A stretch of DNA of 52,753 bases from an uncultured bacterium. Its GTDB lineage: Bacteria; Planctomycetota; Brocadiia; Brocadiales; Scalinduaceae. The notes beneath the pieces were generated by a model. That model saw nothing but the letters and a program-made list of their open reading frames with translations, did no database searches and was not told the DNA's origin. Every line of letters starts with the position of its first letter. The first letter of the stretch is position 1. The stretch lies in assembly GCA_913055705.1 (NCBI GenBank), contig CAJXKT010000001.1, positions 1 to 52,753 on the forward strand, in the 5' to 3' direction. This document shows, piece by piece, positions 11,227 through 23,889 of this stretch. A program made the position numbers and the translations under genes.

Positions 11227-13704
11227 TTAGCCTTGATTCGCCTTAACCCTTGAAATAACACCATTAATAGATGATTCTGAGTCTTTTTTTGTTTCTACAA
11301 GGAACGTAATCACTAAGAAACTATTTATACAGGATATGCTGCTATACTTACCTTTCAAATCTTCAAATGTATACAATGTGTCAGTTTTAACACTGTCTTC
11401 ACCCCATGATTCTCTTAACTCAATGAAATTCTTAAAAGATTCCTCTGCAACTGACTTTTCAGAGTATTTGACTATCAATATTTTGAAAGGCAGACTACTC
11501 TTGTCAGATTTATAATCAGCAACTACTGCATCTGTCTGTTCACTTAGATTTAATACATTTCTATCAATAAACTTGTCAGAAATATAAATATTATCAAGGA
11601 TTATCTTTTTGTGAAAATACCTTGAGCTTCCCTGGATATATCCGTCTTCAGGTAAATACATTAGAATAGCCGGCAAACTAACCTTACCGGCAAGTATGTT
11701 GTCTACAATAGCGGTACCAATAAATGTAATATCATCAGGGCTGACATTCCCTCTGTAAGGCTCAATACTCATGAAATATTTACCTTTCCATACCCACAGA
11801 TAGTTTTCATATAACGAGGCTTCGTTTCCAATATTTACGCCTTGCCCTGCTCTATCCTTTGCAAATATACCGTAGGCATCATCAGAACTGCCAAATTCCC
11901 AGATGTCCACCTTAACAGAATTATCAGTATCCTTCTTAGCATACACAGCTTTTGATACCTGGATAAATGAATAGGACAAATAAACCTCTGCACCTCCATT
12001 GATGTATTCAAAAAGTTTATCCTTACCGGCATACACAGTCGACTTTCCTTTTCTCTTCCAGTCTTCAACAGATACAGGAAAAAGGTCATTTTCCAGCATG
12101 CCAATTTCGCTTGTCATTACCTGAGGCTGTATTCCTTCAACAACTATTGCAGAACGTCCATTTACAGGACAAACCTTTTCACAGAAACCACATCCTATAC
12201 ATGCTTCTTCTCTTACATAAACCCTTCTTATCTCCTTACCATTACCATGAACATATGTATTGAAATGGATTGCTTTTGTCGGGACAGGACAAACCTCTTC
12301 ACATACGCCGCAACTGACATCCTCCCAATTCTTGTCCAGATCCGGTAATCGCGCATAGCCGACCCACGGGATGCACCTGTTCCTGTCTATCCTGGCTTTT
12401 CCTATTGCCAGCCGTTTCTTCTTCTCTTTAGGAAGCCTGGTAATTGCCCCTGAAGGGCAAACTTTTGTACACAGTACACAATCATGGGCGCAATACCCAA
12501 TCCGTGGGATCAGCTGTGGGGTCCACATTCCGCTCAAATCCGCCTCTAAAATTGTAGGATGCAGGCCATTTGTTTTACACACTCTCATACACTCGCCACA
12601 TCTTATACACTTAGCCCGGAATTTATCTTCAGGGATTGAGCCGGGAGGACGAATAATTCCAAAATCACCATTACTCTTCTTCTGAAAGTTAAGTGATAGA
12701 AGAGGAGCTACCGCGGCACTGGAAACACACGCCGTTATAAAACCTCTCTTTGTCAAATTTACAGGGACTACCTGCTCCGACGGCTGTTTAGATGTAAACC
12801 TGACTGCTCCTATAGGACATATATCCTGGCACTTCATACATAAAATGCACTCACCTGCCTGTGTTTTCTTTCCCGTATCATCAATCGCCCCCATCTTGCA
12901 ATCTACCGTACATTTATCGCATCCATCACAAATGTTCTGCCCCACAACACGCTTAAAAATAGACCAATCTGAAAACAGAGCGAATAAGGCTCCTAATGGG
13001 CACAGATCCCTGCACCAATATCTCTTATAAAACAAACCTAAAGATATGATTGCAGAAAGTACTATCAGGAAAATCAAATGCCCTCTGAAAAACGGCGCTT
13101 GCCTGGCAAATAACGCTTCATTTATAAAAACATGGACTTTATCGCTTACAAAACTTATCAGGTAGAATTTATGAAGGAAGTTGAAAAATGAGTTGATTAG
13201 AGAAACGAGATAAGGATGGATAACAATTGTATATGCATTTGTGGCAATACTGATTGGATCAAACCATCCAACCATCTGATGGCCTATAAACAGGCTCAGG
13301 AGGAGAAAGGCCAGTATATAATATTTCAGCCGTTTGGCATCATAAATCTTATATGAAACCCTGTTTCTTTGTTTCTTCAGTAAACGATCTGTAATATCAA
13401 GTGTTGTCCCGAGAGGACATATCCAACCGCAAAAGAAACGGCCTAAAAATAGAGAGGCTGCCAGTACAATAATAGCCGGCCAATACTTTATTATAAATTC
13501 CTTTGCCGCTACCATTGCACCAATTGCAGAAAGCGGACTCATACGGAGAAAGATATCTACCGTTCCGTCCTTTTCGGCAATGGGGTCTGCATATATCAAC
13601 AGACAAATGAATACAATAAAAACAAGTATTTGTACCGCCAGCCTGATCTTGTAATTTATTGAACCTTTTTTTATGTTTACATTACTATTTCCTGTCATTC
13701 TCAA
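11227..13704 (-). CDS. Membrane polyferredoxin (NapH-like plus NapG/MauM-like 4Fe-4S domains) fused to a C-terminal DUF6599-like domain
   Basis: GRFFCGWICPLG and RYWCRDLCPLG; several CxxCxxCxxxC clusters; RPPG motif; internal TKRGFI before a hydrophobic helix; LFEYINGGAE and DAYGIF in the last ~280 aa. Confidence 0.8.
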   Translation of the reverse strand: MRMTGNSNVNIKKGSINYKIRLAVQILVFIVFICLLIYADPIAEKDGTVDIFLRMSPLSAIGAMVAAKEFIIKYWPAIIVLAASLFLGRFFCGWICPLGTTLDITDRLLKKQRNRVSYKIYDAKRLKYYILAFLLLSLFIGHQMVGWFDPISIATNAYTIVIHPYLVSLINSFFNFLHKFYLISFVSDKVHVFINEALFARQAPFFRGHLIFLIVLSAIISLGLFYKRYWCRDLCPLGALFALFSDWSIFKRVVGQNICDGCDKCTVDCKMGAIDDTGKKTQAGECILCMKCQDICPIGAVRFTSKQPSEQVVPVNLTKRGFITACVSSAAVAPLLSLNFQKKSNGDFGIIRPPGSIPEDKFRAKCIRCGECMRVCKTNGLHPTILEADLSGMWTPQLIPRIGYCAHDCVLCTKVCPSGAITRLPKEKKKRLAIGKARIDRNRCIPWVGYARLPDLDKNWEDVSCGVCEEVCPVPTKAIHFNTYVHGNGKEIRRVYVREEACIGCGFCEKVCPVNGRSAIVVEGIQPQVMTSEIGMLENDLFPVSVEDWKRKGKSTVYAGKDKLFEYINGGAEVYLSYSFIQVSKAVYAKKDTDNSVKVDIWEFGSSDDAYGIFAKDRAGQGVNIGNEASLYENYLWVWKGKYFMSIEPYRGNVSPDDITFIGTAIVDNILAGKVSLPAILMYLPEDGYIQGSSRYFHKKIILDNIYISDKFIDRNVLNLSEQTDAVVADYKSDKSSLPFKILIVKYSEKSVAEESFKNFIELRESWGEDSVKTDTLYTFEDLKGKYSSISCINSFLVITFLVETKKDSESSINGVISRVKANQG

Positions 13705-13724
13705 ATCTTTTTATCCGACACGAT

Positions 13725-14711
13725 CTAAATTGTTATTTCTCCAAAGCCTCTTAATTTAAAATCAATCTCTCCCAGTCCCGCCCCATACGACTCCCGGATA
13801 AAACCTATATCACGGCCATGATAACCAAACATGGTGGCACCGTATGAATCCACTGCCACAGGATCAACACAAAACACTAATCTTCTGGCATTTTCATAAT
13901 TGTTGTCAACATCCTCCAGCCTTCCACCCGTAGGACCATTTCGTTTTAAGATTCTGAATGCGTCAAGAACAGTAAGATCAACCTTCACAACTTTATTAAT
14001 ATCTGCTATTTTTGGATGTATATCCTTGTGTATCGAACCTCTGTTACCACCTATCATTCCCATAGTATTCTTAAGTGCCATAGATAAACGTGAAGTACTA
14101 TGCTGCTTTGCTATAGGAACATTTATCAACACGTCAGCTTCATCCTGATATATAAACTTCTCATAAAAAGGCCATGAATCAAGTAGCTTGCCACCCGGTA
14201 TCTTGAAATCCTTAAACAGTCTCTCGTTAACAAATCTAACCTCTGCACCAACCTCTTTTGCAGCTTTTTCGATCCCGCTATTTATATATGAAGGGCCTGG
14301 ATTCTTTGCGCAGGTATGATCAAGCACGCTCACTCTATTCGCCCCGGCTTCTATACACATCTCAGCCAATGCAGCAACAACAAAGGGATTTGTGTTTACT
14401 GCGTACTCAGGCTGCCTGTCCCATGCTATGTTTGGTTTGATAACAACATTATCACCCCTTGAAACCAGTTTGTCCATTCCGCCAATGGCTTTAATACCTC
14501 TACTCACCATTTCTCTTATTATGGAGCTTTCATCATTTCTCTCAACAATATCACCATGTACTACAACCAGTTTCTTTTTTAAACTATTTTCTTTAAACGT
14601 CTTCAGCGACCTTGGCCTTTCAAACGAACTCAAATACGAGAGGCCATAAAGTCCTGTTCCGACTGCAATACCAGTCTTAAGAAAAGTTCTTCTTGAAATA
14701 TTATCTTTCAT
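13725..14711 (-). CDS. DUF362-domain protein with twin-arginine signal peptide
   Basis: SRRTFLK signal; GD.VVIKPNIAWD, TNPFVVAAL, LINVPIAKQH, LKNTMG, DPVAVD. Confidence 0.85.
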   Translation of the reverse strand: MKDNISRRTFLKTGIAVGTGLYGLSYLSSFERPRSLKTFKENSLKKKLVVVHGDIVERNDESSIIREMVSRGIKAIGGMDKLVSRGDNVVIKPNIAWDRQPEYAVNTNPFVVAALAEMCIEAGANRVSVLDHTCAKNPGPSYINSGIEKAAKEVGAEVRFVNERLFKDFKIPGGKLLDSWPFYEKFIYQDEADVLINVPIAKQHSTSRLSMALKNTMGMIGGNRGSIHKDIHPKIADINKVVKVDLTVLDAFRILKRNGPTGGRLEDVDNNYENARRLVFCVDPVAVDSYGATMFGYHGRDIGFIRESYGAGLGEIDFKLRGFGEITI

Positions 14712-15900: not shown

Positions 15901-17202
15901 TTAACTCAAAACACCAACCAGATTATCACGCCTTTCCTTAATCTTGTCAACCAAACTATCATCTATTTTTATACTTCCTAACTTAGCATCTGGTTTTCGT
16001 TCACCATGACAGTCCGAACCACCGGTAATTACAAGATCGTATTTTTTTGCTATTCGCTTATATCTTTTTATAGCTTCTGGCAGGTGTGATGGACAATAGA
16101 CCTCTATCCCTTGCAGACCATATTCAACCATCTCGGGAATCAGCATATCTCTTTTGTTAATGCCAGGGTGTGCAAGAACAGGAACACCGCCTGATGAAAT
16201 GATAAGCTCGATAGCATCTTTTAATGTCAGCGTTACTTTAGGTACATATGCAGGTCCATGATCAGACAGGTACTTTTGAAAACTTTCCCTAATATCGCGG
16301 CAATAACCTTTTCTACACAATACGTCAGCAACATGCATACGCCCGGGTGACCCCATCTCTGCAACATCGAAGACTTCCTGATGCTCTATATTAACACCCA
16401 TACCTCTAAGCATACTGGTTATCTTCTTAATTCGCTCAACTCTTTCAAGACGCAGCTCAGCTAATTTCTCCAGAAGCATACTATTCTTTATATCTAAAAA
16501 ATAACCTAAGAGATGAATATCAACAGGACGATAATAAGAAGATAGTTCTATTGCGGGAATAATATTTATCCCCTTCTTATGACAAACGTTTTGGGCAATT
16601 TCGACAGCATCTACACTATCATGGTCGGTTATTGCAATCGTACGGAGGTTGAGCTTGGATGCCTCCTCAACTACTTCTTCCGGTGACATGGTTCCGTCTG
16701 AAAACTTCGTATGAATATGTAAATCAGCACCCGCCCGTTCTTCCAGGCTTTTGTTATCTCTGATATTTGCGGTAACTTCTTGAACCCCTTCATTATTCTT
16801 TATATATATTGTATATACCTTATCCAACACTCCATTTACAAATAAGCCGGATTTTTCAGTACTGTATTTCTTAGCTAAATCAATCGCCTCGTTGATGGAA
16901 ACCTTTGGGGGGATATCATCCATATAAAACAACTCATAGCATGCCAGCCTTAAGACATTTCTGTCTACAACCGGCATCCTGTGCATATCCCAATGTTCAG
17001 ATAGTTGAGTTATCTTTTTATCTATTACTTTTATTTTCTGAATACACCCTTTAGCTAATATCGCAGCAAAATCACTTATTGCAGCATCTTTACCTTGTTC
17101 CCGGCAAAAAGTATCTATCTCATTTAAAACTTCATTGCCACGAAGCTCTAATTGATAAAGAACCTGTAATACGATCTCACGAGAATGCGTTCTTTTTCGC
17201 AT
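15901..17202 (-). CDS. nusB: NusB (aa 1-130) fused to a PHP-domain phosphoesterase/exoribonuclease of the TrpH/YciV type (aa ~159-433)
   Basis: R..SRE..LQ.LY, DRNVLRLA.YEL, INEAIDLAKKY, FVNGVLD; then DLHIHT..SDG, TDHD, IELS, HLLGY, GRMHVA, AHPG, GIEV, GGSDCHG. Confidence 0.9.
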   Translation of the reverse strand: MRKRTHSREIVLQVLYQLELRGNEVLNEIDTFCREQGKDAAISDFAAILAKGCIQKIKVIDKKITQLSEHWDMHRMPVVDRNVLRLACYELFYMDDIPPKVSINEAIDLAKKYSTEKSGLFVNGVLDKVYTIYIKNNEGVQEVTANIRDNKSLEERAGADLHIHTKFSDGTMSPEEVVEEASKLNLRTIAITDHDSVDAVEIAQNVCHKKGINIIPAIELSSYYRPVDIHLLGYFLDIKNSMLLEKLAELRLERVERIKKITSMLRGMGVNIEHQEVFDVAEMGSPGRMHVADVLCRKGYCRDIRESFQKYLSDHGPAYVPKVTLTLKDAIELIISSGGVPVLAHPGINKRDMLIPEMVEYGLQGIEVYCPSHLPEAIKRYKRIAKKYDLVITGGSDCHGERKPDAKLGSIKIDDSLVDKIKERRDNLVGVLS

Positions 17203-17228: not shown

Positions 17229-17696
17229 CTATTTCATTTTATCAAACAAATTCACCATCTCCAGGGCTGCAAGTGCGGCCTCTGCACCCTTGTTACCGCC
17301 TCTGGCACCAGCTCTATCTATAGCCTGTTCCAATGTATCAGTTGTAATTACTCCATATATTGTTGGAATACCCGTTGTAAGCCCTACCTCAGAAATACCC
17401 TTCGCTGATTCACTGGAAACATAATCAAAATGAGGTGTCTCACCACGTATTACTGCCCCGAGACAAATGATACCATTATGTTTTGTGTTTTTAGCCACTC
17501 TCATAGCCGTAATCGGCAGCTCACAAGCTCCCGGAACCCAGAACACATCGATATCATCATCCTTAATGCCATGTCTAATCAAACAGTCCTGAGCACCTTC
17601 TAACAGCTTCTTCGTAATAAAACTATTAAACCTGCTGACAACAATACCAAAGGTCTTATTCTTACCAATAAGGTTACCTTCAAACGATTTTACCAT
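17229..17696 (-). CDS. ribH: 6,7-dimethyl-8-ribityllumazine synthase
   Basis: SRFN, VPGA.ELP, LGAVIRGETPHFDYV, NKGAEAA; ribH-nusB synteny. Confidence 0.97.
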   Translation of the reverse strand: MVKSFEGNLIGKNKTFGIVVSRFNSFITKKLLEGAQDCLIRHGIKDDDIDVFWVPGACELPITAMRVAKNTKHNGIICLGAVIRGETPHFDYVSSESAKGISEVGLTTGIPTIYGVITTDTLEQAIDRAGARGGNKGAEAALAALEMVNLFDKMK

Positions 17697-17743
17697 GGAA
17701 TTATCTCCTAATTAAGAGAAAGAGTGACAAGGCTTTAGAGTCA

Positions 17744-17772
17744 ATAGTATCAAAAACAAACTACCCTTGCAA
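17744..17772 (-). promoter_or_regulatory. Putative sigma-70 promoter for ribH-nusB-ftsY
   Basis: Minus strand TTGCAA (17772-17767), 17 nt spacer ending TGA, TACTAT (17749-17744). Confidence 0.5.
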
Positions 17773-17932
17773 GGCTTTTCTGATACCCCCTCCCAGTGTA
17801 TCCAGCCTTATACGATATATTGAATCTTGTAATTTAAATCCTATCCTAGTATTATAACCACACCTCAAAATATAGGTATTATTTAAACGATTTGTGTCTA
17901 AACAACGACAAAGTTTTGTCGATATTGTTTCG

Positions 17933-17951
17933 CCTGCCTGCCGCAGGCAGG
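17933..17951. repeat. 19-nt palindrome CCTGCCTGC-C-GCAGGCAGG
   Basis: Perfect 9-bp inverted repeat; GC-rich island in AT-rich intergenic DNA. Confidence 0.65.
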
Positions 17952-18081
17952 GATTCCGGATCTCATGCTTCGGATTTTATGATTGTATCTGCCCCTCCAT
18001 AGGGGCAATATTTTTAAGTCTTAGCTTATAAAATATGTAGCCACTTAGTCCTTTGCTAAAACAAGAACGATACTAAAGGTA

Positions 18082-19422
18082 ATGGAAGAAAAAGAAATTA
18101 GCGAAAAAAGATTACCCATAAGCGAACATCTTGAAGAGCTGCGATCAAGGATTATAAACTCAATCATCGTAGTTGTTGTACTATTCTTTATCAGTTGGTT
18201 CTATAAGTTAAGAATTCTTGATATTATAAAAAAGCCTCATAGTATTACCATGGAAAGCCTGGGGTTGTCACAATCGCTTCAGGTGCTGAGTTATCAAGAA
18301 GGTTTTTATGCTTATATAAAGCTGTGCTTAATGACAGCAGTTTTCCTGGCATATCCTGTAATCTTATATCAAATCTGGAAATTTGTAGAAGCCGGTTTAT
18401 ATAAGAAAGAGCGCAGATACGTAAGAATCTTTGCCCCTATCTCATTCATCGCATTCATATTAGGTGTATTATTCGGGTATTTCTTCTTAATACCCTTTGG
18501 CCTTCAATTCCTGATAAAGGTACTGGGAGGGGGAATACAGCCTATTATTACAATGAGCCAGTATATCTCGCTTGTAACTATGCTGACACTCGCACTCGGC
18601 GTTGTTTTCCAGCTTCCCCTTATAATGTTGTTTGTTTCCAGGATTGGAATGCTTAAGGCAGAAGATTTTATTAAATGGCGAATGTATGCTATCCTTATCA
18701 TATTTATTCTTGCCGCAGTAATAACGCCACCGGACCCGTTTACACAGGTCATGACGGCTTTACCTATGATAATTCTTTATGAAATAGGCATTCTCACAAT
18801 AAGACCCACAAAGAAAGCAGTTACACAATTCAGTATCTTATTAGGTTCCGGTATATTACTGATATATATAGTTCTTTTGATATTCACACTTCCAACAAAA
18901 GCGGATTTCTTAAATTCAACCGGTGTTGTTAAGATGCTCCCGGACTCAGTCACAAATTGGCAACCTTTATCATCCGAATCTAAAATTCACAATGGCACCT
19001 CACTAAGAACAGGAAAAGGTAGTAAAGCCTCCTTCCTCCTGAAAGATGGTACCTATGTCATAATGGATGTTAATACTGAAATCAAGTTTGTTAAAAACAG
19101 AAAACTCGACCTGCTAAATGGACAAATACTCCTCTCTATAAAGGCAGATGAAAAACCATTTATGATAGCCGCCAACAATAACGTCATAACTTCAAATGAC
19201 GGCAACGTTGATATAAGGATATCAAAACACATGGTCTTTGTTACGGTAACAGAGGGAGAAGCAATAGTTGTTGCAAATGGAGAAAAGAAGAAAGTGTTTG
19301 AAGGAAGGCAATTGAAACTTGTAACCGGAGGCGAACCGGCAAATATAGACAAAGTTCTGAAATGGGCTAAAGAAATGCGCAAAAAATTAGAAGAACAGAA
19401 CAAACGGAATTTAGGCCTGTAG
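18082..19422 (+). CDS. tatC: Twin-arginine translocase TatC (aa 1-~241) fused to an extra TM helix and a FecR-like C-terminal domain
   Basis: HLEELRSR, YQIWKF..GLY..E, FQLP, ITPPDPFTQ, LYEIG; then TM aa 250-270 and LRTG.GS.A...L.DGT....D.NT.I, L.LL.GQI, PF.I, VTVTEG. Confidence 0.9.
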   Translation: MEEKEISEKRLPISEHLEELRSRIINSIIVVVVLFFISWFYKLRILDIIKKPHSITMESLGLSQSLQVLSYQEGFYAYIKLCLMTAVFLAYPVILYQIWKFVEAGLYKKERRYVRIFAPISFIAFILGVLFGYFFLIPFGLQFLIKVLGGGIQPIITMSQYISLVTMLTLALGVVFQLPLIMLFVSRIGMLKAEDFIKWRMYAILIIFILAAVITPPDPFTQVMTALPMIILYEIGILTIRPTKKAVTQFSILLGSGILLIYIVLLIFTLPTKADFLNSTGVVKMLPDSVTNWQPLSSESKIHNGTSLRTGKGSKASFLLKDGTYVIMDVNTEIKFVKNRKLDLLNGQILLSIKADEKPFMIAANNNVITSNDGNVDIRISKHMVFVTVTEGEAIVVANGEKKKVFEGRQLKLVTGGEPANIDKVLKWAKEMRKKLEEQNKRNLGL

Positions 19423-19667
19423 AAAACCAGAAACCTGATCTATAAATTTCTAATTGGAACTAAACCAGCTATTGACAATATTAGACTGAGGGAGGCCTCC
19501 CAAACTGAATTTTGTTCATCATGGAAGACATAAATGAATTATGACGATTGCTGTAGGGAATGAAAGGAATACAAAAAAATATAAACGCAAGAAAAGATTC
19601 CTTACGAAATGGATTAATGGAAGGTTGCCAGAGATGACTTCTTACGACTAATCAAGAATTGATTATA

Positions 19668-20117
19668 TTATTGTCTGCCCTGATCCTCGTACTTCATAAC
19701 TAATTCTTCCTGTTCGATGGTCTCTATTGAACCGGGCCTCTTCATTCTGACTTTTTCTATTGCCTTTGCAGCATTGTATCCTTTGCTGACAAGGTAACAT
19801 GCCAGCACGGTTCCAGTCCTTCCTATACCCGCATCACAGTGAACCACCAGCTTTTTACCCTCAGCACATGCTTCCTCTGCAAATGCCATAAAGTCTTCAA
19901 TCTGCTCCAACGTCGGAGCTTCAAAGTCTCTAACCGGAAGATGCTTTACACTAAAACCAAATTCCTCTATCAATGTTTCATTAAGGGGAAATTCAGTAAG
20001 TGATACTATTGCTTCAAAACCATTTTCTTTGAGGAATTCAAAATCATACACAGAAGACGCTGGTTTAGCCATGCCAGCAATTTCGCCTTCTATTAACCAG
20101 CTAAAGTTTCTAATCAC
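19668..20117 (-). CDS. Dual-specificity protein phosphatase (CX5R)
   Basis: NFSWL, HLPVRDFEAPT, VHCDAGIGRTGT, RPGSIET. Confidence 0.92.
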   Translation of the reverse strand: MIRNFSWLIEGEIAGMAKPASSVYDFEFLKENGFEAIVSLTEFPLNETLIEEFGFSVKHLPVRDFEAPTLEQIEDFMAFAEEACAEGKKLVVHCDAGIGRTGTVLACYLVSKGYNAAKAIEKVRMKRPGSIETIEQEELVMKYEDQGRQ

Positions 20118-23085: not shown

Positions 23086-23889
23086 CTATTGACAGAAAAA
23101 TCCTTGCAAACTTAAGTTCGTATTAAACATATTATTAAGTTGATTGTATCTTTCTAAGTTTCTCTTGTTCTTTCCCTTTTGTTTCCTTGCGGATATTAAA
23201 ATATTCTTCGGAGTTAATTTCGGAGATACTATTTCTAGAAGTTCTACATAGTATCCATTACCGGAAAGAAATTGTGATCTTAACGCATCTGTTAATATGT
23301 CCGCAAATTTATACCGCAGCAAACCAAACTGAGTCACACTTGTTAAAGGGTGATGAGATTTTATTTGAGAACGCAACTGCCCCTGGCAACATGGTACAAC
23401 CATAATATACTTAGCACCCATTTTAATACCTTTGGCAATTGCTTCATCAGTAGCTGTATTACATGCATGCAGTGCAATAACTACATCAATCTTTCTATCA
23501 TAAGAAGAATCAATCGTCCTTCCATGCTTAAAGACCATATTCTCATAACCTAAAACAGATCTGGTCTCCTCACATCTTTGTATAAGTTCTTTATTGGTAT
23601 CTATGCCGAAGAAAAAGGGTGTTGTACTAAGCTCACTCTCAAGAATATAACTTAAAACAAACGAAAGGTAAGATTTACCACATGAACATTCCAGAAAGAC
23701 AATTTCTTTTTCTCTGTCAAACTTCCTGACGACCTTCAATATTTGTTCACAAAAACCGGCAATCTCATTAATTTTCTTGTTCATCTCCTTTTTTAACAGA
23801 CCATTGTTGTGCCTGAATCCAAGGGGATTTGTTATGTTGTCTTCTTGTTCTAAGAGATTTAGTATTTCTGCTTTATTTGTTATTCTCAT
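23086..23889 (-). CDS. Class I SAM-dependent methyltransferase (Methyltransf_32-like)
   Basis: LECSCGKSYL (motif I), GIDTN, ALHACNTATDEAI, VPCCQ, TDALR, TPKN. Confidence 0.8.
   Translation of the reverse strand: MRITNKAEILNLLEQEDNITNPLGFRHNNGLLKKEMNKKINEIAGFCEQILKVVRKFDREKEIVFLECSCGKSYLSFVLSYILESELSTTPFFFGIDTNKELIQRCEETRSVLGYENMVFKHGRTIDSSYDRKIDVVIALHACNTATDEAIAKGIKMGAKYIMVVPCCQGQLRSQIKSHHPLTSVTQFGLLRYKFADILTDALRSQFLSGNGYYVELLEIVSPKLTPKNILISARKQKGKNKRNLERYNQLNNMFNTNLSLQGFFCQ

What the first reader, a model, noticed from the sequence alone, without database searches (positions are those of the whole stretch)
18082..19422. TatC with a seventh TM helix and an extracytoplasmic FecR-like domain
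Seen: a canonical TatC core ends at ~aa 241, followed by a short basic loop (RPTKK), a hydrophobic helix (aa 250-270) and ~175 aa with FecR-type beta repeats. No tatA/tatB ORF is adjacent. Known: TatC normally has six TMs with a cytoplasmic C-terminus, and FecR domains are periplasmic protein-interaction modules. Inference: the extra domain sits on the trans side and could localise, gate or sort at the translocase. If the host is an anammox bacterium, which must route cofactor proteins to either the anammoxosome or the periplasm, this is a candidate sorting determinant. Two probable Tat substrates are encoded 3-7 kb away.
Basis: partly seen in the sequence, partly recalled or inferred. Interest (0 to 1): 0.75.

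Follow-up and report, generated by a model that had tools for sequence, protein, structure and literature searches.

The report
TatC with trimer-forming FecR-like cap
The only TatC protein-export receptor of this anammox bacterium carries an extra membrane helix and a FecR-like domain predicted to face outward, a fusion published in 2010; it also occurs in relatives lacking the anammox enzymes and is predicted to join in threes, so it is likely a structural cap on the export machine rather than a sorter for the anammox organelle.

Summary
The 446-aa ORF has an intact TatC core, a seventh hydrophobic helix and a Pfam FecR domain, and it is the only tatC of a Ca. Scalindua-like anammox genome. 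It is already known: Medema et al. 2010 (PMC2881027) described the same fusion in Kuenenia and made the same sorting speculation. This scan also found it twice before on other DNA.

An anammox-specific sorter is not supported. The fusion is intact in 29 of 30 tatC-bearing genomes of four related families, none with HDH/HAO-type or HzsA orthologues. Brocadiales nest inside them in the TatC tree.

The tail has the PupR juxtamembrane fold (Z 15.9) but lacks the STN partner-binding subdomain and the Gly-Thr self-cleavage site. A three-copy model supports self-association by exchange of the C-terminal arm (0.79, best control 0.00), matching the (TatBC)3 stoichiometry and the M. xanthus periplasmic TatC trimer.

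Best reading: an outward trimeric cap recruited from an anti-sigma factor before anammox arose. Its function is untested.

The parts
18082..19422 (+). tatC-fecR fusion ORF, 446 aa; only tatC in the genome
18082..18804 (+). TatC core (aa 1-241), six hydrophobic helices; H16, E19, F101, L106, E110, T215, D218 in 29 of 29 aligned rows and Q222 in 28 of 29
   Evidence: spacing matches E. coli H12/E15, F94/L99/E103, T208/Q215 in PMC13323110
18802..18816 (+). basic loop RPTKK (aa 241-245); P242 nearly invariant; inferred cytoplasmic
18811..18891 (+). seventh helix (aa 244-270), predicted transmembrane, N-in/C-out inferred
18901..19323 (+). FecR/CJM-fold beta domain (aa 274-414; Pfam FecR at 19003-19260); D373-G374 stands where FecR proteins have the Gly-Thr cleavage site; no STN subdomain follows
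19324..19419 (+). C-terminal arm: GGEP hinge (aa 416-419) and helix with invariant W428; predicted to pack on the neighbouring copy's beta sheet

Best explanation
This is the cell's only TatC, with an intact core, extended by a seventh helix and a FecR-fold domain that likely sits on the trans side and is predicted to link with its neighbours into a three-subunit cap that would brace the TatC trimer. Shown: the fusion, a single tatC, conserved TatC functional residues, the presence of the fusion in non-anammox relatives, and the absence of an STN subdomain and of the Gly-Thr site. Predicted: the fold, and a cyclic exchange in which the GGEP-hinged W428 helix of one copy packs on the sheet (T388, L350, G408-Q410) of the next. 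Inferred: the helix plus domain was captured once from a membrane-anchored anti-sigma factor of the zf-HC2/TM/FecR/HEAT type, in the ancestor of Brocadiales and families f8-f11, before anammox. It lost its signalling parts and now acts as a structural accessory, like the unrelated homotrimeric periplasmic insert of Myxococcus xanthus TatC. Substrates would still cross at the periphery through TatA.
For: Distribution: intact in 29 of 30 tatC-bearing f8-f11 genomes; 0 of 40 non-Brocadiales class members have HDH/HAO-type matches, against 92 of 92 Brocadiales. TatC-core tree: the fused proteins form one group (91/80, careful tree of 71 rows) with Brocadiales (100/100) nested inside non-anammox fused rows (quick trees agree, SH-aLRT 94). 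Fold: VIA Z 15.9, rmsd 1.6 A over 113 residues to PupR 111-231, and Z 15.7 to BDI_1681; next best 7.1. That range is the CJM subdomain, which does not bind the partner without STN (PMC7186176; PMC11637429). G[T/S/C] at the cleavage position: 1 of 84 TatC-fused rows against 87 of 145 other rows (rows include duplicates and fragments). Nearest non-TatC relatives: 14 of the 22 non-TatC hits scanned carry zf-HC2 plus FecR, most with a HEAT repeat. Three-copy model: 0.79, best of 3 controls 0.00, runs agree in at least 95% of contacts, pLDDT at least 90; the mark was reached by 20 of 30 proteins solved as pairs and 1 of 23 solved as single chains. The scored copy gives its arm to one neighbour and receives one from the other. 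W428 is present in 79 of 79 sequences. TatC cores are (TatBC)3, and the M. xanthus insert homotrimerises and augments TatC contacts (PMC13323110 section 6). Unrelated trans-side tails follow a seventh helix in other Planctomycetota.
Against: No experiment. The complex job used the isolated tail, three copies chosen by me and my own alignment, while the calibration held dimers only; the exchanged arm could be a helix that packs on its own sheet. Interface columns as a whole are not significantly more conserved than the rest of the tail (38 vs 125 columns, p 0.18-0.41). Whether three domains on short TM7 tethers can meet above the TatC cup was not modelled; the full-length monomer has pTM 0.58. 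Support for one origin is moderate (91/80; 88% of bootstrap trees). Most bacteria run TatC without a cap: 78 of 80 comparison loci have short tails. The N. salsuginis insert is disordered, so such additions need not be structural. Missing anammox genes in draft genomes do not show that those cells lack internal membranes.
Confidence: 0.5

Rival explanations
1. The domain is a docking site for a separate trans-side partner (chaperone, envelope protein or emerging substrate) that positions the translocase or hands over cargo.
For: FecR-family periplasmic regions take part in protein interactions. The domain is kept across Brocadiales and f8-f11. R409 (47 of 50) and Q410 (49 of 50) are conserved in Brocadiales but not listed as conserved in the non-anammox set.
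Against: The partner-binding STN part is absent. The few conserved non-glycine residues (W428, T388, A316, P419, L350) fall in the predicted self-interface. No conserved partner gene lies next to tatC across the loci compared.
Confidence: 0.2
2. An older domain was co-opted in anammox bacteria to confine the Tat system to the anammoxosome membrane or to sort cargo between organelle and periplasm (first reader; Medema 2010).
For: Single tatC; no complete short TatC seen in any Brocadiales genome. Medema et al. predicted the Tat system and 7 of 9 Tat substrates to be anammoxosomal.
Against: The fusion is present in relatives without anammox enzymes and the tail shows no tighter constraint in anammox. 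TatFind predicted no Tat substrates in Medema's organellar training set, and HDH and HZS-gamma signal peptides export PhoA in E. coli (PMC12758564 section 11), so the main organelle enzymes likely bypass Tat. A trans-side domain meets cargo only after the membrane has been chosen (inference).
Confidence: 0.15
3. The tail is a nearly neutral passenger of an old fusion, kept only because it must fold and fix the orientation of the seventh helix.
For: The tail evolves 2.4-3.1 times faster than the core; 7 of 165 tail columns are at least 90% conserved against 49 of 231 in the core, mostly glycines. Two Brocadiales genomes have frameshifts in or just before the tail (G045, G057).
Against: No lineage with a clean loss was seen among 119 tatC-matching genomes of Brocadiales plus f8-f11. 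G045 also has a split HzsA and G057 has a short tandem repeat at the break, which points to assembly errors. W428 is invariant.
Confidence: 0.1
4. The tail still signals, as a cleavable sensor coupling translocase status to an ECF sigma factor, or the loop before TM7 is an internal twin-arginine signal by which TatC exports or blocks itself.
For: The nearest relatives are anti-sigma factors. E. coli FecR is an internal-signal Tat substrate (PMC13673990). The loop reads P-[ST]-basic-basic in most Brocadiales.
Against: There is no cytoplasmic anti-sigma domain, no STN and no Gly-Thr site. RR occurs in only 4 of 77 genome loci and 5 of 15 representatives; KK occurs in 36 of 50 Brocadiales, and many f11 rows have no basic pair. 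The positive-inside rule explains the basic loop (established knowledge).
Confidence: 0.05

Closest known systems
TatC-FecR of Ca. Kuenenia stuttgartiensis, kustc0286 / CAJ71031 (Medema et al. 2010, PMC2881027)
   Same: TatC with a C-terminal PF04773 domain predicted non-cytoplasmic, single copy, same sorting speculation; ftsY (kustc0279) has a nearby locus tag, and ftsY lies about 2 kb away here.
   Different: This is the Scalindua-type orthologue. The paper called the domain absent from any other TatC; here it is also found in four non-anammox families. The fold assignment and the predicted trimer were not in the passages read.
Myxococcus xanthus TatC with periplasmic insert (PDB 9E03, 9E0S; PMC13323110)
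   Same: A roughly 170-residue folded trans-side addition to TatC that homotrimerises over a (TatBC)3 core; here trimerisation is only predicted.
   Different: There the domain is inserted in a periplasmic loop; here it follows a seventh helix at the C-terminus. No likeness between the two extra domains was found (9E03/9E0S not listed).
FecR/PupR/FoxR cell-surface-signalling anti-sigma factors (PupR CCSSD 6OVM; BDI_1681 4M0H) and zf-HC2/FecR/HEAT anti-sigma-type proteins
   Same: A membrane helix followed by the CJM beta-solenoid-like fold (Z 15.9).
   Different: No cytoplasmic anti-sigma domain, no STN or HEAT subdomain, no Gly-Thr self-cleavage site; a GGEP-hinged arm instead.

Membership tests
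TatC (PF00902 / TIGR00945) | Profile match over curated cut-offs | tested here: met
   221 bits vs 25.1; 190.6 vs 132.7
TatC (PF00902 / TIGR00945) | Six-helix glove fold | tested here: met
   Model matches 4B4A, TM 0.90 by target, rmsd 2.0 A
TatC (PF00902 / TIGR00945) | Signal-recognition and polar-cluster residues | tested here: met
   H16, E19, F101, E110, T215, D218 in 29 of 29 rows, Q222 in 28 of 29; mapped by spacing to the numbers in PMC13323110
TatC (PF00902 / TIGR00945) | TatA-family partner in the genome | tested here: met
   Two unlinked PF02416 genes
TatC (PF00902 / TIGR00945) | Exports twin-arginine substrates | not testable with these tools
   Needs complementation or transport assay
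Anammox TatC-FecR fusion (Medema 2010) | C-terminal PF04773 on the only TatC of an anammox bacterium | tested here: met
Anammox TatC-FecR fusion (Medema 2010) | FecR domain non-cytoplasmic | tested here: inconclusive
   Hydropathy, charge bias and model agree; no topology predictor or experiment was run
Anammox TatC-FecR fusion (Medema 2010) | Unique to anammox bacteria | tested here: not met
   29 intact copies in genomes without HDH/HAO-type or HzsA orthologues
FecR-type anti-sigma factor | CJM/FecR periplasmic fold after a membrane helix | tested here: met
FecR-type anti-sigma factor | Cytoplasmic sigma-binding domain | tested here: not met
   TatC occupies the N-terminus; no such Pfam hit; NCBIfam FecR equivalog 19.3 vs cut-off 385
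FecR-type anti-sigma factor | C-terminal STN subdomain | tested here: not met
   Only a 32-residue arm and helix follows the beta domain; match to PupR ends at residue 231, STN is 250-324
FecR-type anti-sigma factor | Gly-Thr self-cleavage site | tested here: not met
   D373-G374 here; 1 of 84 fused rows vs 87 of 145 other rows
TatC with homotrimeric trans-side domain (M. xanthus type; works-like comparison) | Extra domain forms a homotrimer | tested here: inconclusive
   Model supports binding, 0.79 vs best control 0.00 (20 of 30 solved pairs, 1 of 23 single chains reach the mark); not shown

The most novel reading that the evidence does not exclude
An anti-sigma factor's membrane anchor and FecR domain were captured by TatC before anammox evolved and turned into an arm-exchanged trimeric cap over the (TatC)3 cup. 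Other Planctomycetota lineages solved the same need with at least two unrelated domains behind a seventh helix. Trans-side capping would then be a recurrent module of the Tat core complex, which anammox bacteria inherited and may use to organise Tat in the organelle membrane.
Probability: 0.4. Interest if true: 0.55.

Novelty: already known. Interest (0 to 1): 0.33.

Why it matters
How anammox bacteria route proteins to their organelle is still open (PMC12758564 discussion), and TatC-FecR has been a named candidate since 2010. Its presence in non-anammox relatives weakens that candidate and supplies natural controls for tail-swap tests. The predicted trimer gives a cheap test (a soluble 163-aa domain, W428 and the GGEP hinge). 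If real, it would be a second case of a trans-side lid over the TatC trimer, which bears on the central-pore versus peripheral-transport debate, and a naturally enlarged TatC for cryo-EM.

Tried and rejected
Separate gene or assembly artefact: rejected.

Second tatC: none found (genome 94.9% complete).

TM7 as a fused TatB/TatA substitute: rejected by reasoning. Its inferred orientation (N-in, C-out) is opposite to TatA/B, and two tatA-family genes exist.

Internal twin-arginine signal before TM7: not conserved.

Interface conservation test: not significant.

Shared origin of the FecR tail and the other Planctomycetota tails: hhalign probabilities 0.04-0.25%. The HEAT-like tails against the anti-sigma C-terminus gave 66% over 56 columns, suggestive only.

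Naming families f8-f11: the genome-contig scan used core motifs and returned mostly unrelated TatCs, so the families stay as handles. That set served as a comparison: 78 of 80 had short tails.

The Atlas look-up of the f81 tail gave no result, so that domain is unidentified. It has no Pfam hit and was not folded.

Upstream region: no Rfam match, single copy in the genome, promoter-like sites at chance level (7 vs 7.3).

Full-model Foldseek hits below rank 11 had E>0.01 and were ignored. RNA-library contigs hold the gene but cannot show expression level or strand. PMC7482068 was a false hit on a primer. PMC7148137 was not read.

Full report
Observation. Window 18082-19422 (+) is one 446-aa frame. 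Pfam finds TatC at aa 15-228 (E 1.9e-65) and FecR PF04773 at aa 308-393 (39.7 bits, cut-off 24); NCBIfam tatC passes its cut-off, the FecR equivalog does not. A seventh hydrophobic peak lies at aa 252-270 after RPTKK. AlphaFold2 on a 29-row alignment (mean pLDDT 83, pTM 0.58) predicts a helix at 244-268, a beta domain at 274-414 and a helix at 422-445. The best 120 of 186 homologues listed carry FecR in the tail region, and those named are Ca. Scalindua TatC. Contigs from 4 of 4 runs show no indel or joint across the junction.

Host. The genome (94.9% complete) has one tatC, two unlinked TatA-family genes, an 806-aa protein with the HZS_alpha domain taken as HzsA and hydrazine dehydrogenase (1083 bits to 6HIF). 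It is an anammox bacterium. tatC is divergent from ribH-nusB-ftsY.

Prior art. Medema et al. 2010 (PMC2881027; passages read) report a C-terminal PF04773 domain on Kuenenia TatC (kustc0286), predicted non-cytoplasmic by three programs, call it absent from any other TatC, and speculate on a role in sorting to the anammoxosome. Two earlier reports of this scan reached the same paper, and one also noted relatives lacking hydrazine synthase; I had reached both points before that look-up. Searches for TatC+anammox, TatC+FecR, TatC/Planctomycet/periplasmic domain/C-terminal extension and anammoxosome/Tat/sorting showed no paper on the wider distribution or on oligomerisation. The library is open-access only, and I did not read supplements of PMC2881027 or PMC13323110, which may bear on this.

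Distribution. Of 132 genomes in the class, 92 are Brocadiales (order inferred from homologue names and enzymes) and 40 belong to other orders. In Brocadiales, 89 match; 78 align to residue 410 or beyond in one frame, 8 end at contig edges, 1 was not checked and 2 are frameshifted. Outside Brocadiales, 35 of 40 have a tatC match. Five (f6, f7) are short (4 inspected as loci, 1 from the table). In f8-f11, 29 of 30 are intact fusions and 1 is frameshifted with the tail still encoded. Eleven of these 29 helped build the tail profile; the other 18 scored E 3e-17 to 6e-38 independently, and Pfam FecR passes its cut-off in f8, f9 and one f11 protein. HDH/HAO-type matches at E<=1e-60 occur in 92 of 92 Brocadiales and 0 of 40 others. 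HzsA matches occur in 63 of 92 Brocadiales; of the other 40, only 3 have weak partial matches of 80-95 bits. Among 378 sampled genomes of other classes, 70 matched the full-length profile at E<=1e-70 and none aligned past position 299 of 449: not found in those searched.

Phylogeny. A careful tree of 71 of 88 TatC cores (17 f11 rows dropped) puts the 24 fused proteins on one side of a branch (91/80), with Brocadiales (100/100) sister to f8+f9 and f10+f11 outside. Quick trees with all 88 rows and with 17 added representatives agree. One fusion before anammox is the simplest reading; support is moderate and the root is by midpoint. The tail evolves 2.6-3.1 times faster than the core in anammox groups and 2.4 times in f11.

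What the domain is. The tail model (pLDDT 94) matches PupR residues 111-231 (Z 15.9, rmsd 1.6 A, 113 residues) and BDI_1681 (Z 15.7); the next hit is 7.1. That range is the CJM subdomain. In PupR neither subdomain alone binds the transducer, and in FoxR the STN part is required (PMC7186176 and PMC11637429, passages). The tail has no STN. The Gly-Thr self-cleavage site of FoxR aligns to D373-G374; 1 of 84 fused rows keeps G[T/S/C], against 87 of 145 other rows (duplicates and fragments not removed). Of 40 hits scanned from the best 150, 18 were TatC fusions and 14 of the other 22 had zf-HC2 plus FecR, mostly with a HEAT repeat, i.e. anti-sigma-type proteins. A donor of that kind is inferred, not tested by tree.

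Predicted assembly. Tat cores are (TatBC)3, and the M. xanthus periplasmic insert is a homotrimer that augments TatC contacts, while the N. salsuginis insert is disordered (PMC13323110, section 6 and passages). I therefore folded three copies of the tail. The model supports binding: 0.79 against a best control of 0.00, runs agreeing in at least 95% of contacts, pLDDT at least 90; 20 of 30 solved pairs and 1 of 23 single chains reach the mark, counts that hold only roughly for this job. Residues 415-434 (GGEP hinge, W428) of one copy pack on the sheet of the next (315-317, 327-330, 348, 350, 377, 388, 403-412), and the scored copy both gives and receives an arm. W428 and G408 are in 79 of 79 sequences, and 9 of the 25 most conserved tail columns are at this interface, but the interface as a whole is not significantly more conserved (p 0.18-0.41). 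The model cannot exclude a helix that packs on its own sheet, and no full-length trimer was modelled.

Other lineages. Among 20 long-frame TatCs that I picked from other classes, 14 have a seventh hydrophobic helix plus 154-187 residues unrelated to FecR. Eleven (f81, f22, f56, f94) share one family without a Pfam match (hhalign 98.7% between the two subsets, helix included) and 3 are HEAT-like. One Myxococcales TatC also has such a tail.

Verdict. The feature is real and already known. The best-supported mechanism is a structural trans-side cap, likely trimeric, inherited from before anammox (0.5). A partner-docking role (0.2), co-option for organelle sorting (0.15), a neutral passenger (0.1) and signalling or self-targeting (0.05) remain. 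Interest 0.33.

Noticed in passing
L056-L066 (G376, G347, G404, G249, G332, G285, G203, G227, G459, G301, G317): TatC of families f81, f22, f56, f94 carries a seventh helix and a 158-187-residue domain with no Pfam match, unrelated to FecR; these TatCs group together in the tree.
   Followed up: partly
L067, L069, L074 (G196, G170, G168): TatC with a seventh helix and a HEAT-like helical tail of about 155-165 residues, weakly like the C-terminus of zf-HC2/FecR/HEAT proteins (hhalign 66%).
   Followed up: partly
L070:474-2279, L071:448-2334: Open frames hold a 2-phosphosulpholactate phosphatase domain (PF04029) in frame ahead of TatC, a possible N-terminal fusion; start codons not checked.
   Followed up: no
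L088:2854-4548: A Myxococcales TatC with an extra hydrophobic helix and about 270 C-terminal residues, not matching the FecR tail profile.
   Followed up: no
window 15901-17202 (-): NusB fused to a PHP-family domain in one 433-aa ORF; matching frames lie beside tatC in many relatives.
   Followed up: no
window 11227-14711 (-): DUF362 protein with SRRTFLK followed by a membrane polyferredoxin fused to DUF6599, with an internal TKRGF motif that may be an internal Tat signal.
   Followed up: partly
window 23086-23889 (-): A Methyltransf_32 gene sits between ribosomal-protein-like ORFs (identified by eye as rpsM and rpsK) inside the ribosomal operon.
   Followed up: no
L005 (G000:C95): The genome's second FecR match is at the N-terminus of a secreted-looking protein of over 1180 aa with internal repeats.
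   Followed up: no
window 17906-18007: Three short hairpins upstream of tatC; terminator-like sites number 8 against 1.5 in shuffles over 17690-19700; no Rfam match, single copy.
   Followed up: partly
L049-L051, L176 (f6, f7): Short TatCs of these class members fall outside the fused group in the tree, suggesting replacement or early branching (the f7 row is a long branch).
   Followed up: partly
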